From the NCBI RefSeq assembly GCF_058153355.1, contig NZ_CM177019.1: 64,000 nt of DNA, one strand, 5' to 3'. Made by a program: the position numbers. This document shows positions 28,301 to 34,300 of this stretch, piece after piece; position 1 is the first letter of the stretch; every line of letters starts with the position of its first letter.

Positions 28301-31300
28301 GGAGGACGTTCGGGGAATACTGTGGGGCGGCAACAGATCGATAGCCGCTGTTACGCCAAATTCGCTTTGGATCCGTGCTGCCAGTGCGTGGATAAGCTGC
28401 CCACGACGTTCTTCGTCGCTGATCCTACACTGGATCTGCAAAATGATTTTTTCCTGGGCGGTAACAAAAGCAATCGCATCGCCAGAATGAATTTCCGGTT
28501 CCTGTTCCGCAATATATTCAATATCCTGCGGCCAGATATTACGGCCACGAATAATAATCAGATCTTTAATGCGCCCGGTGACATACAGATAACCGTCCAG
28601 CAGATAACCGAGGTCGCCGGTATCTAACCAGCCCGTCGCGGCAATCTCGTCTTGCGAAACCTGGTCGCCAAAGTAACCGCTCATCAGGCTGGGGCCGGAG
28701 ATGCAAATATGGCCTACCACACGTTCCGCGACCGGCATACCTGCTTCATTGCGGATTTCAATGCCATGTTCCGGCAACGCTTTACCGCAGTTGACGAAAG
28801 TCGATACGGCGCGTGTTTCAGCACCCGGCGCGACGGCTTTGCCCTGATATTCAAGGATGTCGCGATCCACTTCGTTAACCACAACCCCGGAGGCTTCATC
28901 AGAGAAGCTGACAGCCAGCGCATTTTCTGCCAGTCCGTAGCACGGCATGAAAGTTTTATCGTCAAAGTTAACCTGACGGAAACATTCAGCGAATTGATGG
29001 AGTTGTTCTGCGGAGATCGGCTCAGCACCAATACCAGCAACGCGCCAGCAGGAAAGATCCAGTTCAGCGAGATCTTTTTCATTCACGCGGCGCTGGCACA
29101 ATTCATAGCCAAACGGCGGCGCAACGGAAACGGTGCCGCGATTTTTACTGATCAATTTAAGCCATTGCAGAGGACGCATGGCAAAATCCTGAGTGCGCAA
29201 ATAATCTACTGAGAGCTGCGTGGCGACGGGGGTCAGGAGAAAGCCGACCAGTCCCATATCATGGTAGAAAGGCAGCCAGGAGACGCAGCGGTCGCCAGGG
29301 CGTAATTTAATGCCATCGTGGCTTATAGCACGTAGATTAGCCATCACTTCGCGATGGGTGATAATGACGCCACGGGGAAAACGGGTGCTGCCGGAGGTGT
29401 ACTGGAGGTAGGCGATATCGTTCGGAACTGGACGCTGGAGTACAACATCGGCTTCCGGTAATGCCTTAAACCAGGCGTGGCTTAAAACATGTAATTCGGG
29501 GTTGTTATGCGTAGCAGCATTGACCAGTGGCAACCACTCATCACCAGTGATAATGGCTGTGGGCTGGCAACTTGCCAGTAAACCCTGCAGTTTGGCGCTC
29601 CAGGAATCCCGCTGACCGACGCCCATTGGAATTGCCAACGGGACGGCGACTAAGCCGGCATACTGGCAGGCAAAAAAAGCCTCTACAAACCCGCTACTCG
29701 TTTCGGCAATCAACGCCACGCGATCGCCTTTTTTCAGATTCAGTGATAACAACCGCTTCGCACCAGCTTCGGCACGCGCTTTTAACGTCTGATATTCGAG
29801 TTGATCTTCAAGTTGGCAACGTCTGTCATAAAAATTCATTCCGGCGCTACTCAGAGCGGCGTAGTCCAAAGCATCAACCAGCGTTGGAAAATCGGCATAG
29901 CGCATAGGTAGGGAATGCGTAAAGATTTTATTAGACATATACACCACGAAAAAAAATTGGATATCAGAAATAAAATGACAATAATGCGGTGGATTATATA
30001 GGCATAAAAGATAAATGAGATAGTATTTTCATCGGTGCGATATTGAACATTGATTTAAATAATAGGTTTGGCTTTGTTGTTTTTATTGTGAATGATATTT
30101 AATTTATGAATATATTAAGAAGAAGCCTTGTTTGGTTGCCTTAAATCGACAAAAGGCATTGAGGCGCTTCTGTGTAGTCTCTGACCTTATCTTAATTATT
30201 AATAAATACTATTTATTCTTTGTTTGTATTCATTGGGTTGATTATTAAGATGCCGTTCGTTGCTGTTGCAATCTGTTTGTCACCGTTAATTATTTGTTAT
30301 CCACAGAGATATGGAATGCGATCTGCTGATGATTAAAATTGAAAAAGTAATTAATAAAAATGACCTTAAGGCATTTATCGCTTTTCCGTCATCACTTTAT
30401 CCCGATGATCCAAACTGGATACCCCCTTTGTTCATTGAACGCAGCGAGCATTTGTCGGCGAAGAATCCGGGGACGGACCATATTATCTGGCAGGCGTGGG
30501 TAGCAAAAAAAGCGGGGCAGATAGTCGGGCGGATTACCGCGCAAATCGATACCTTGCACCGCGAGCGTTACGGTGACGATACCGGTCATTTTGGCATGAT
30601 TGACGCCATTGATGATCCGCAGGTTTTTGCCGCTTTGTTTGGCGCAGCGGAAGCATGGTTGAAGTTACAAGGTGCCAGTATGATCAGCGGGCCTTTCAGC
30701 CTGAATATCAATCAGGAAAGCGGATTACTGATTGAAGGTTTCGACACTCCGCCCTGTGCGATGATGCCGCACGGTAAACCGTGGTATGCCGCGCATATTG
30801 AACAATTGGGTTATCACAAAGGTATTGATTTACTGGCGTGGTGGATGCAACGAACCGATCTCACTTTCTCTCCGGCGCTAAAAAAACTGATGGATCAGGT
30901 ACGCAAAAAGGTGACCATTCGTTGCATCAATCGTCAGCGGTTTGCTGAAGAGATGCAGATCCTGCGTGAGATTTTCAACTCTGGCTGGCAGCACAACTGG
31001 GGATTTGTGCCGTTTACCGAACATGAATTCGCTACCATGGGCGATCAACTAAAGTATCTGGTACCGGACGATATGATCTACATCGCTGAGATTGGTTCTG
31101 CACCCTGCGCGTTTATTGTCGGCTTGCCGAACATAAACGAGGCGATTGCCGATCTGAACGGATCGCTCTTTCCCTTCGGCTGGGCAAAATTGCTGTGGCG
31201 CTTAAAAGTCAGCGGTGTGCGAACTGCGCGAGTGCCGCTGATGGGCGTGCGTGACGAGTATCAGTTCAGCCGCATCGGCCCGGTGATTGCGCTGTTATTG

Positions 31301-34300
31301 ATTGAAGCCTTACGCGATCCGTTTGCTCGCCGGAAGATCGATGCGCTGGAAATGTCATGGATCCTCGAAACCAATACAGGCATGAATAACATGCTGGAAC
31401 GCATTGGAGCGGAGCCGTACAAGCGTTACCGATTGTATGAAAAGCAGATTTAATACCAGATCCCATTAAGCGCAGGGGCGGTCCCCTCGCCCCTCAGGGA
31501 GAGGGTTAGGGTGAGGGGGAAAACTCGGCTCACATTCCCCCCTTGTTCATCTCCAGTGGCACCGCCGAGCGAATCAAATGGTGGCCTTCCAGTTCGATAT
31601 CGTGGAGATTCTTTTTCACGGTCCGCACATGATCACGTGCGGCGCGCTGGGCGACGTGCGGCAGTCGCTGCAACACCGCGTTGTAGATCCGCGCATGTTG
31701 GCGATCGATCTGCTTTTTTTGCTGTGGTCGATGGTAGAGATTATTTACGCTGGCAAACACTGAATTAAACATCAGATCGGTCAATGATTGCAGCGTAAAA
31801 ACTAGCACCTGATTGTGGGAAGCCTGACAAATGGCAAGATGGAAAGCATGATCCAGCTGCGCGTGTTCGATCAGCGAAATTTCTTTGTTGTTTTCACTGG
31901 CGGCGAGCATTTTTTCATAACAGCGGGTTATCAAAACAAAATCCGCCTGGGTTCCCAGCGTAGCTGCCAACCTTGCCGATTCGCCCTCCAGCAATGCGCG
32001 AACGTCGAGCAGATCGTACAGCGTTCGCGGCTGCGTACTGAACAGATGGATCAGCGGGCTGGTGTCCTGCACGCGATTAAGGCGTGCTACACGAGAATCG
32101 CGCCCCTGCGCTGTTTCAATAATCCCGCGTCCGCGCAGCACGGTCAGCCCTTCACGCAGTGCGGAGCGTGAGAAGCCGAGCTTTTCACACAGTCGACGTT
32201 CCGAGGGAAGCGGCTGACCGACCTTCAATACGCCGTCGATAATTAACCGTTCGATACTCTCTGCAACCACTTCGCAAATAGGGCGACGTTCATCTTTCAT
32301 TCCCGGACCTCGTGCACAGGTAGGACCAATTTTTCTGTTCTTGATTCGCAAAACACGCACATCACGCAAGTGATTATGTTACATCAATTTAACATTAAGT
32401 TAACCAAGGCAAGGTCACAGAGCTGGAAAAAAAATGGTCTGACCGGTAGCTAAAGAGATAGACGAAAACGAAAAGCCCGCTTAATAACTGTTCACAGAAG
32501 CAGCGCGCAAAAATCAGCTGCCACACAACACAACAAAGCGAACCCTACTCATGAGCATCTTGTACGAAGAGCGTCTTGATGGCGCTTTACCCGATGTCGA
32601 TCGCATATCGGTACTGATGGCACTGCGTGAGCATGTCCCTGGACTGGAGATCCTGCATACCGATGAGGAGATCATTCCTTACGAGTGTGACGGGTTGAGC
32701 GCGTATCGTACGCGTCCATTACTGGTTGTTCTGCCTAAGCAGATGGAACAGGTGACGGCGATTCTCGCTGTCTGCCACCGTTTGCATGTACCGGTAGTGA
32801 CCCGTGGCGCAGGCACCGGACTTTCTGGCGGTGCGCTGCCGCTGGAAAAAGGTGTGTTGTTGGTGATGGCGCGCTTTAAAGAAATCCTCGACATTAACCC
32901 CGTTGGTCGCCGTGCGCGTGTGCAGCCGGGCGTGCGTAACCTGGCGATCTCCCAGGCTGTTGCGTCGCATAATCTCTATTACGCGCCGGATCCTTCCTCA
33001 CAAATCGCCTGTTCCATTGGCGGCAACGTGGCGGAAAACGCCGGGGGCGTCCACTGTCTGAAATATGGTCTGACCGTACATAACCTGCTGAAAATTGAAG
33101 TGCAAACGCTGGATGGCGAGGCACTAACGCTGGGATCGGACGCGTTGGATTCACCCGGTTTTGACCTACTGGCGCTGTTCACCGGATCGGAAGGCATGCT
33201 CGGCGTGACCGCCGAAGTGACGGTAAAACTGCTGCCGAAGCCCCCTGTGGCACGAGTTCTGTTAGCCAGCTTTGACTCGGTAGAAAAAGCCGGACTTGCG
33301 GTTGGCGACATCATCGCTAATGGCATTATCCCTGGCGGGCTGGAGATGATGGATAACCTGTCGATCCGCGCGGCGGAAGATTTTATTCATGCCGGTTATC
33401 CCGTCGACGCCGAAGCGATTTTGTTATGCGAGCTGGACGGCGTGGAGTCTGACGTACAGGAAGACTGCGAGCGGGTTAACGACATCTTGTTGAAAGCGGG
33501 CGCGACTGACGTCCGTCTGGCGCAGGATGAAGCGGAGCGCGTGCGTTTCTGGGCCGGTCGCAAAAATGCTTTTCCGGCGGTAGGACGTATCTCCCCGGAT
33601 TACTACTGCATGGACGGCACCATCCCGCGCCGCGCGTTGCCTGGCGTACTGGAAGGCATTGCCCGTTTATCGCAGCAATATGATTTACGCGTTGCCAACG
33701 TCTTTCATGCCGGAGACGGCAATATGCACCCGTTAATCCTTTTCGATGCCAACGAACCCGGTGAATTCGCCCGTGCGGAAGAATTGGGTGGGAAGATCCT
33801 TGAACTCTGTGTTGAAGTAGGCGGCAGTATCAGTGGGGAACATGGCATCGGGCGCGAAAAAATCAATCAGATGTGCGCCCAGTTCAACAGTGATGAAATT
33901 ACTACCTTTCATGCAGTCAAGGCGGCGTTTGATCCTGATGGTTTGCTGAACCCTGGGAAAAACATCCCCACACTGCACCGCTGCGCTGAATTTGGTGCCA
34001 TGCACGTGCATCACGGTCATTTACCTTTCCCTGAACTGGAGCGTTTCTGATGCTACGCGAGTGTGATTACAGCCAGGCGCTGCTGGAGCAGGTGAATCAG
34101 GCGATTAGCGATAAAACGCCGCTAGTGATTCAGGGCAGCAATAGCAAAGCCTTTTTAGGTCGTCCTGTCATCGGGCAAACGCTGGATGTGCGTTGCCATC
34201 GCGGCATTGTTAATTACGACCCGACCGAGCTGGTGATTACCGCGCGTGCCGGAACACCGCTGGTGGCGATTGAAGCGGCGCTGGAGAGCGCGGGGCAAAT

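What the first reader, a model, noticed from the sequence alone, without database searches (positions are those of the whole stretch)
30311..31453. yghO is full-length and divergent from the lipid operon: candidate N-acyltransferase for the pathway
A 380-aa intact ORF shares the AT-rich divergent promoter region (29948-30310) with the lipid operon. yghO is recalled as a pseudogene in K-12. Its position suggests it supplies the missing N-acylation step (ceramide-synthase-like) or a related acyl transfer.
Basis: inference. Interest (0 to 1): 0.5.

Follow-up and report, generated by a model that had tools for sequence, protein, structure and literature searches.

The report
E. coli YghO: bacterial ceramide synthase ortholog

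Summary
The ORF at 30311-31453 (+) is real, intact and is yghO. It lies head-to-head with a four-gene operon (aasR, cerR-like reductase, acpR, spt) across a 363-372 bp spacer of 30% GC.

YghO is 45% identical (E 3e-111, full length) to Caulobacter bCerS (ccna_01212/CC_1154), which I located with that gene's published cloning primers. It keeps all 34 conserved family positions. A confident AlphaFold model (pLDDT 96.8) is a tandem GNAT acyltransferase fold.

Family members sit beside spt, a reductase or LptF/LptG paralogs in eight other lineages. In four other enterobacterial genera only the yghO/aasR divergent pair is kept.

In K-12 an IS5-associated deletion removed the operon, the promoter and the first 14 codons of yghO.

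Padilla-Gomez et al. 2022 (PMC9386255) name yghO (ECD_02850) as the CC_1154 homolog and putative (dihydro)ceramide N-acyltransferase. A 2026 preprint draws the E. coli UTI89 sphingolipid operons.

YghO activity, co-expression with the operon and native sphingolipid production in E. coli remain untested.

The parts
30311..31453 (+). yghO, 380-aa ORF. The conserved protein is 374 aa from ATG 30329. It is a bCerS-family tandem-GNAT N-acyltransferase, the putative ceramide synthase.
   Evidence: ORF and translation. RefSeq name yghO. 45% identity, E 3e-111, to Caulobacter bCerS. All 7 invariant and 27 near-invariant family positions are shared. AF2 pLDDT 96.8 with a tandem GNAT fold. dN/dS 0.038 against K-12.
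29939..30310 (.). AT-rich divergent intergenic region between aasR and yghO. The promoters are presumed and not mapped.
   Evidence: GC 29.8% over 29948-30310. Only one sigma-70-like match, which is not above chance. There is little conservation with Citrobacter except next to the aasR start.
28229..29938 (-). aasR-like fatty acyl-AMP ligase (specialised acyl-ACP synthetase).
   Evidence: NCBIfam NF006624 fatty acyl-AMP ligase, 873 bits against a cutoff of 600. RefSeq annotation. The E. coli BL21 ortholog ECD_02851 was tested as AasR in PMC9386255.
27318..28232 (-). cerR-like NAD-dependent epimerase/dehydratase-family reductase (putative 3-keto reductase).
   Evidence: RefSeq annotation. SDR/epimerase family matches and an N-terminal GATGFIG Rossmann motif. 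Listed as the homolog of CC_1164 (ECD_02852) in PMC9386255.
27038..27286 (-). acpR-like specialised acyl carrier protein.
   Evidence: ACP family matches. The BL21 ortholog ECD_02853 was shown to carry 4'-phosphopantetheine (PMC9386255).
25866..27038 (-). spt, serine palmitoyltransferase.
   Evidence: NCBIfam equivalog NF047599, 598 bits against a cutoff of 500. The BL21 Spt (ECD_02854) was assayed in PMC9386255.
23685..25831 (+). lptF2/lptG2-like permease pair (23685-24755 and about 24752-25831), the candidate sphingolipid exporter.
   Evidence: TIGR04407 LptF 320 bits and TIGR04408 LptG 306 bits. The Caulobacter paralogs next to bcerS are required for sphingolipid transport, and the E. coli UTI89 locus is drawn alongside them (bioRxiv 10.64898/2026.04.12.717747).
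20909..23654 (+). yghQ (MOP/Polysacc_synt flippase-like, 20909-22258), a 274-aa protein with no family match (22258-23082) and a YtfJ-family protein (23091-23654). All three travel with the locus in other Enterobacterales.
   Evidence: The same genes occur in the Citrobacter, Pluralibacter and Serratia loci.

Best explanation
YghO is the E. coli ortholog of the bacterial ceramide synthase bCerS (Caulobacter CCNA_01212/CC_1154). It is a soluble or peripherally membrane-bound cytoplasmic protein built from two GNAT domains.

The proposed pathway is as follows. AasR loads a fatty acid onto AcpR. Spt condenses acyl-AcpR with serine to give 3-ketosphinganine. YghO transfers a second fatty acyl chain from an acyl thioester (most likely acyl-CoA) to the C2 amine of the long-chain base. 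The CerR-like reductase reduces the 3-keto group, either before or after N-acylation. The product, (dihydro)ceramide, is then probably flipped (YghQ) and exported (LptF2/LptG2).

Shown here: orthology, fold, conserved residues, conserved gene neighbourhood and purifying selection.

Inferred from the Caulobacter work and not tested for the E. coli protein: substrate, acyl donor, order of steps, localisation, and whether the locus is expressed at all.
For: (1) The Caulobacter bcerS gene was located through its published primers EK1199 and EK1200. Both match, at the start and end of a 384-aa ORF directly downstream of LptF- and LptG-like genes, as described for ccna_01214 and ccna_01213.

(2) BLASTP of YghO against this protein gives 45% identity over 365 aa, E 3e-111. 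All 34 conserved family positions are shared. The published table gives 44% identity, E 1e-107 for CC_1154 against ECD_02850.

(4) The family profile aligns its C-terminal part (profile positions 305-380) with GNAT motif A/B of 3tt2 and 2ge3 (E 0.006 and 0.03). This suggests that the second GNAT domain binds the acyl-CoA.

(5) Gene neighbourhood. yghO is divergent from aasR-cerR-acpR-spt in E. coli, Serratia, Citrobacter, Pluralibacter and Pantoea. Distant members (34-50% identity) sit in an spt-homolog-epimerase operon, an SDR-homolog-spt-GT21 cluster, or next to LptFG, DAG-kinase-like and CDP-alcohol transferase genes.

(6) dN/dS is 0.038. The gene is single-copy. The yghO/aasR junction is present in 4136 of 5426 complete E. 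coli genomes.

[quoted passage not shown] In BL21 expressing Spt/AcpR/AasR, compounds migrating like sphinganine and ceramide appeared, 'possibly by intrinsic enzymes', and ECD_02850 was named as the candidate (PMC9386255).
Against: There is no direct assay of YghO. In the literature I could search, no report shows that wild-type E. coli makes sphingolipids.

No Pfam, NCBIfam or PDB sequence hit reaches significance for the single sequence. The GNAT assignment therefore rests on the model, the weak profile hits and orthology.

The locus looks dispensable. It is absent from about 24% of complete genomes and deleted in K-12, and its closest relative carries a frameshifted lptF2. The 30% GC spacer is compatible with silencing under laboratory conditions.

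Co-regulation with the operon is not shown. The promoter scan was uninformative and I found no conserved motif.
Confidence: 0.85

Rival explanations
1. YghO belongs to the bCerS family, but in Enterobacterales the locus is a cryptic or silenced remnant, or it makes a different N-acyl amino-lipid. On this view YghO has the chemistry but makes no physiological ceramide in E. coli.
For: The spacer is AT-rich. The locus is lost repeatedly: spt is missing from about 1300 of 5426 genomes, about 440 more genomes keep yghO than spt, and K-12 has the IS5 deletion. lptF2 is frameshifted in strain 2013C-4282. The enterobacterial locus carries yghR/S/T P-loop kinase-like genes in place of the Caulobacter head-group genes. 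I found no report of native E. coli sphingolipids.
Against: Purifying selection is strong, with dN/dS 0.038. The full gene set is retained in 76% of E. coli and in several other genera. E. coli Spt, AcpR and AasR are active when expressed, and ceramide-like spots appear in BL21 (PMC9386255).
Confidence: 0.1
2. YghO is a generic GNAT N-acetyltransferase acting on proteins or small molecules and is unrelated to the neighbouring lipid operon. Its adjacency would be coincidental.
For: Databases call it 'N-acetyltransferase'. It was included among candidate lysine acetyltransferases in PMC6199490. The closest solved folds are acetyltransferases.
Against: It is 45% identical to a validated ceramide synthase. 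The neighbourhood with spt, reductase and LptFG is conserved across distant lineages while the other flank varies. From my recollection of the PMC6199490 abstract, which I did not re-read, YghO is not among the acetyltransferases that study identified; the clone tested there was the IS5-fused K-12 form.
Confidence: 0.04
3. YghO is a DNA-binding transcriptional regulator, as the K-12 annotation says.
For: Only the label in NC_000913.3 and in some UniProt/AFDB entries.
Against: No DNA-binding domain is found by Pfam or NCBIfam. The whole chain folds as two GNAT domains with no helix-turn-helix module. The same family also carries the equally unsupported label 'dATP pyrophosphohydrolase'.
Confidence: 0.01

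Closest known systems
Bacterial ceramide synthase bCerS / CerS / 'Aca' of Caulobacter crescentus (CCNA_01212 = CC_1154)
   Same: Full-length homology (45% identity, E 3e-111), similar length (374 vs 384 aa), all conserved family residues, no transmembrane segment, and membership of a locus with spt, acpR, aasR, cerR and lptF2/lptG2.
   Different: The gene order differs. In E. coli yghO is a single divergent gene next to aasR, whereas in Caulobacter bcerS follows lptF2-lptG2 several genes away from spt. The E. coli locus lacks the Caulobacter phosphoglycerate head-group genes and has yghR/S/T and a YtfJ-family gene instead. The E. coli enzyme has not been assayed.
Tandem-GNAT N-acyltransferases with solved structures (MAB_4324 7q3a, GlcN N-acetyltransferase 5kf1, MshD 1ozp, clavulanate ORF14 2wpw; more distantly Eis, FemX and N-myristoyltransferase)
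   Different: Sequence identity is only 12-16%. YghO is 35-85 residues longer than the five named structures (290-340 aa), with insertions such as the conserved PFGW-KLLWRL helix. Its presumed substrates are a long-chain acyl thioester and a sphingoid base rather than acetyl-CoA and a sugar, thiol or protein.
Eukaryotic ceramide synthases (Lag1/CerS, TLC domain)
   Same: The same proposed net reaction, N-acylation of a sphingoid base by an acyl-CoA.
   Different: The fold and topology are unrelated. Eukaryotic CerS are polytopic membrane proteins. YghO has no TLC domain hit and no hydrophobic run longer than 9 residues. This is the 'convergent evolution' case described for bCerS in Stankeviciute et al. 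2022, which I know from citations in held papers but did not read.

Membership tests
bCerS (bacterial ceramide synthase) family | Significant full-length sequence homology to the genetically validated Caulobacter bCerS (ccna_01212/CC_1154) | tested here: met
   45% identity over 365 aa, E 3e-111. The reference gene was identified by both published primers and by its LptF2/LptG2 neighbours. This agrees with the published 44% identity, E 1e-107.
bCerS (bacterial ceramide synthase) family | Conservation of the family's invariant residues | tested here: met
   7 of 7 invariant and 27 of 27 near-invariant columns of a 79-sequence family alignment are identical in YghO and Caulobacter bCerS.
bCerS (bacterial ceramide synthase) family | Genomic association with spt and a cerR-type reductase | tested here: met
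   Window and RefSeq annotation. Five enterobacterial genera. Distant members in L007, L008 and L015.
bCerS (bacterial ceramide synthase) family | Acyl-CoA-dependent N-acylation of 3-ketosphinganine or sphinganine; loss of ceramide on deletion | not testable with these tools
   Only indirect evidence exists: ceramide-like TLC spots in BL21 expressing Spt/AcpR/AasR, attributed to possible intrinsic enzymes (PMC9386255).
bCerS (bacterial ceramide synthase) family | Cytoplasmic, peripheral membrane protein without transmembrane segments | tested here: inconclusive
   There is no long hydrophobic stretch and the model is fully globular, which is consistent with the feature. Localisation itself has been shown only for the Caulobacter protein (PMC11087976).
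GNAT superfamily (tandem GNAT architecture) | GNAT fold in each half (mixed beta-sheet with helices) | tested here: met
GNAT superfamily (tandem GNAT architecture) | Sequence match to GNAT profiles, including the motif A CoA-binding loop | tested here: inconclusive
   The single sequence gives no Pfam or NCBIfam hit. The family profile gives weak hits to GNAT chains over the C-terminal motif A/B region (E 0.006 and 0.03). Some homologs carry a precomputed PF00583 hit, faint where a strength is given.
Eukaryotic-type ceramide synthase (Lag1/TLC) | TLC domain in a multi-pass membrane protein | tested here: not met
   No TLC/TRAM_LAG1 hit in Pfam, no transmembrane-like segment and a GNAT fold.
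DNA-binding transcriptional regulator (K-12 label) | Recognisable DNA-binding domain | tested here: not met
   No such domain by Pfam or NCBIfam. The whole chain is accounted for by two GNAT domains.

The most novel reading that the evidence does not exclude
Most natural E. coli, and several other Enterobacterales, can make a ceramide-based outer-membrane lipid under conditions not yet identified. YghO would be the ceramide synthase. The head group would be built by the locus-specific yghR/S/T kinase-like genes and the unannotated 274-aa protein, and so would differ from the Caulobacter lipid. K-12-centred research would have missed this because the IS5-associated deletion removed the pathway. 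A sub-variant is that YghO takes its N-acyl chain from acyl-AcpR rather than from acyl-CoA.
Probability: 0.35. Interest if true: 0.65.

Novelty: already known. Interest (0 to 1): 0.25.

Why it matters
If the locus is active, E. coli would be a sphingolipid producer. That bears on outer-membrane biology, on host interaction (bacterial sphingolipids signal to the gut) and on the use of BL21, which carries the locus, as a 'sphingolipid-free' expression host.

In practical terms, yghO is still labelled 'protein YghO', 'N-acetyltransferase', 'DNA-binding transcriptional regulator' or even 'dATP pyrophosphohydrolase' in databases. Those labels lag behind the literature and could be corrected to 'bCerS-family ceramide synthase (putative)'.

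The assignment itself is published, so the finding adds confirmation rather than discovery.

Tried and rejected
- Single-sequence searches of YghO against Pfam, NCBIfam and PDB sequences gave nothing significant.
I reached the Caulobacter gene through its published primer sequence instead.
- The listing of cluster members on ten representatives gave almost no organism names.
- The Nature Chemical Biology paper on bCerS (Stankeviciute 2022) is not held. Statements about its biochemistry rest on citations in held papers and on memory.
- The consensus promoter and terminator scan of the spacer and gene was at chance level.
- Aligning the spacer with Citrobacter showed no conserved regulatory block beyond the aasR start.
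- Literature searches for expression or regulation of yghO/yghQ/yghR/yghS in non-K-12 strains returned nothing relevant.
- The regulator annotation and the generic acetyltransferase reading were considered and rejected, as set out under the rival explanations.
- One L009 ORF downstream of bcerS (4689-5564) and the window's 274-aa protein gave no family hits.
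Full report
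**Observation**

The window carries an uninterrupted ATG-initiated ORF at 30311-31453 on the plus strand, encoding 380 aa. Megablast against complete E. coli genomes identifies it as yghO. It is 99.6% identical to strain 2013C-4282 and about 95-97% identical to nearly all other strains.

In that genome the annotated neighbours on the opposite strand are a fatty acyl-AMP ligase, an NAD-dependent epimerase/dehydratase, an acyl carrier protein and spt. In the window these occupy 25866-29938. Spt passes the NCBIfam equivalog cutoff (598 bits against 500) and the ligase passes its subfamily cutoff.

The spacer 29948-30310 is 363 bp with 29.8% GC. Two refinements apply.

- Homologs in other genera are 374 aa and begin at the Met corresponding to ATG 30329. 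The first six codons are thus an E. coli-specific in-frame extension.
- In MG1655, yghO (b2981) is annotated as an unflagged 390-aa 'putative DNA-binding transcriptional regulator'. Its first 70 nt are IS5 sequence, and native sequence resumes at window position 30351 (codon 15). Everything from the promoter through the 3' part of yghQ, including the whole spt operon, has been deleted.

**What it is**

The single sequence gives no significant Pfam, NCBIfam or PDB sequence match. It nevertheless belongs to a very large family of proteins, almost all 370-400 aa. There are 6370 representative clusters at E<=1e-3 and 1081 at E<=1e-30.

An AlphaFold2 model built on a 79-sequence alignment is highly confident, with pLDDT 96.8 and pTM 0.93. 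It consists of two GNAT domains. The best solved-structure matches are tandem-GNAT N-acyltransferases:

The family profile aligns its C-terminal 75 residues with GNAT motif A/B of 3tt2 and 2ge3 (E 0.006 and 0.03). This points to the second domain as the acyl-CoA-binding one, which is an inference. There is no transmembrane segment.

**Link to the known bacterial ceramide synthase**

The Caulobacter ceramide pathway needs five genes (PMC11324152 and PMC11087976):

- spt (CC_1162)
- acpR (CC_1163)
- cerR (CC_1164)
- aasR (CC_1165)
- an N-acyltransferase called CerS, bCerS or Aca (CC_1154 = ccna_01212)

I took the published cloning primers for bcerS from the supplement of PMC11087976. The forward primer was found in the Caulobacter vibrioides DSM 9893 genome (locus L009). 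The reverse primer matches the end of the same 384-aa ORF. The two genes immediately upstream are LptF- and LptG-like, as described for ccna_01214 and ccna_01213.

BLASTP of YghO against this protein gives 45% identity over 365 residues, E 3e-111. All 7 invariant and 27 near-invariant family positions are identical in the two proteins.

**Neighbourhood evidence**

In Serratia liquefaciens, Citrobacter amalonaticus, Pluralibacter gergoviae and Pantoea cypripedii, the roughly 80%-identical YghO homolog is again divergent from aasR-cerR-acpR-spt. The gene on its other side differs:

- glcC in E. coli
- a DeoC-family gene in Citrobacter
- a Usp-family gene in Pluralibacter
- a DAGK_prokar gene in Serratia and Pantoea

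Distant family members at 34-50% identity show the same association:

- One is divergent from the same four-gene operon and is followed by nucleotidyltransferase, LptF/LptG, CDP-alcohol phosphatidyltransferase and DAG-kinase-like genes (L007).
- One sits in an spt-homolog-epimerase operon (L008).
- One sits in an SDR-homolog-spt-glycosyltransferase-21 cluster with an LptF/G gene (L015).
- One lies next to LptF/LptG and DAG-kinase-like genes (L005/L006).

The conserved unit is therefore YghO together with sphingolipid genes.

**Selection and distribution**

The window allele and the K-12 allele differ by 39 synonymous and 6 non-synonymous changes over codons 15-380, giving dN/dS 0.038. The gene is single-copy.

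Among 5426 complete E. coli genomes:

- the body of yghO is present in about 4530
- spt is present in about 4090
- the yghO/aasR junction is present in 4136

The locus is thus common but dispensable. About 440 more genomes keep yghO than keep spt, and the K-12-type deletion accounts for at least some of them.

**Mechanism proposed**

AasR loads a fatty acid on AcpR, and Spt condenses it with serine to 3-ketosphinganine. These steps were shown for the BL21 proteins in PMC9386255.

YghO then N-acylates the long-chain base from an acyl thioester. The CerR-like enzyme reduces the 3-keto group. According to the Klein laboratory this reduction follows N-acylation and occurs in the periplasm; according to the Geiger laboratory it precedes N-acylation. 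YghQ and LptF2/LptG2 are candidates for flipping and export.

For YghO itself, the substrate, acyl donor, order of steps, localisation and expression are inferred and not shown.

**Comparison with the literature and novelty**

Padilla-Gomez et al. 2022 (PMC9386255) already list 'aca: CC_1154, yghO ECD_02850' in their figure of rhodobacterial sphingolipid loci. They report 44% identity (E 1e-107). [quoted passage not shown]

A 2026 preprint draws 'the sphingolipid operons' of E. coli UTI89.

What remains open is experimental: YghO activity, conditions of expression, and the nature of any native E. coli sphingolipid. Database names for the family ('protein YghO', 'N-acetyltransferase', 'DNA-binding protein', 'dATP pyrophosphohydrolase') do not reflect the literature.

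**Limits**

- Co-expression with the operon could not be tested. The promoter scan was at chance level, and I found no conserved regulatory motif.
- The primary bCerS biochemistry paper was not available.
- The genome counts are totals and were not joined per genome.

**Verdict**

This is a real feature, correctly interpreted, well supported by orthology, fold and synteny, and already published as a hypothesis. Interest is low to moderate (0.25).

Noticed in passing
window 31454-31530: A GC-rich palindromic repeat (core GGGAGAGGGTTAGGGTGAGGGG with its inverted partner) fills the gap between the stop codons of yghO and glcC. K-12 has only 6 bp there. The full element is found at this place in only 4 of 5426 complete E. 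coli genomes, and a 45-nt core occurs once elsewhere in about 240 genomes. It looks like a small mobile or REP-like insertion. I did not pursue its function.
   Followed up: partly
window 18495-23654: The rest of the locus is conserved with yghO/spt in other Enterobacterales: yghT, yghS and yghR (P-loop, thymidylate-kinase-like), yghQ (MOP flippase-like), a 274-aa protein with no Pfam or NCBIfam match, and a YtfJ-family protein. None corresponds to the Caulobacter head-group genes, so any E. coli sphingolipid could carry a different head group.
   Followed up: partly
window 23685-24755 vs L001 5787-6856: The lptF2-like gene is an intact 356-aa ORF in the window. It is annotated as frameshifted in the otherwise 99.6%-identical genome 2013C-4282.
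   Followed up: no
window 30400-31453: The window's yghO allele is about 4.3% diverged at the DNA level from almost every complete E. coli genome, and only 2 genomes are >=99% identical. The protein is 98% identical (dS 0.18, dN 0.007). spt in the same window is about 97% identical to most strains. The window probably comes from an unusual E. coli lineage or carries a recombined segment.
   Followed up: partly
L003/L004 11354-11716; L014 10242-10604: In Serratia liquefaciens and Pantoea cypripedii the gene immediately downstream of the yghO homolog, on the same strand, is a DAGK_prokar (DgkA-type lipid kinase) gene. This hints at a lipid kinase partner that is absent at this position in E. coli.
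   Followed up: no
L011 5044-6216 (MG1655 b2981): The K-12 yghO CDS is a chimera. Its first 24 residues are read from IS5 sequence and replace the native first 14 residues, which include the first beta-strand of the N-terminal GNAT domain. Experiments with the ASKA yghO clone, such as the lysine acetyltransferase screen in PMC6199490, used this altered protein.
   Followed up: yes
window 27318-28232 (-): The CerR-like reductase starts directly with a Rossmann motif (VTGATGFIGK) and has no obvious signal peptide. The Caulobacter homolog, by contrast, is reported to be periplasmic.
   Followed up: no
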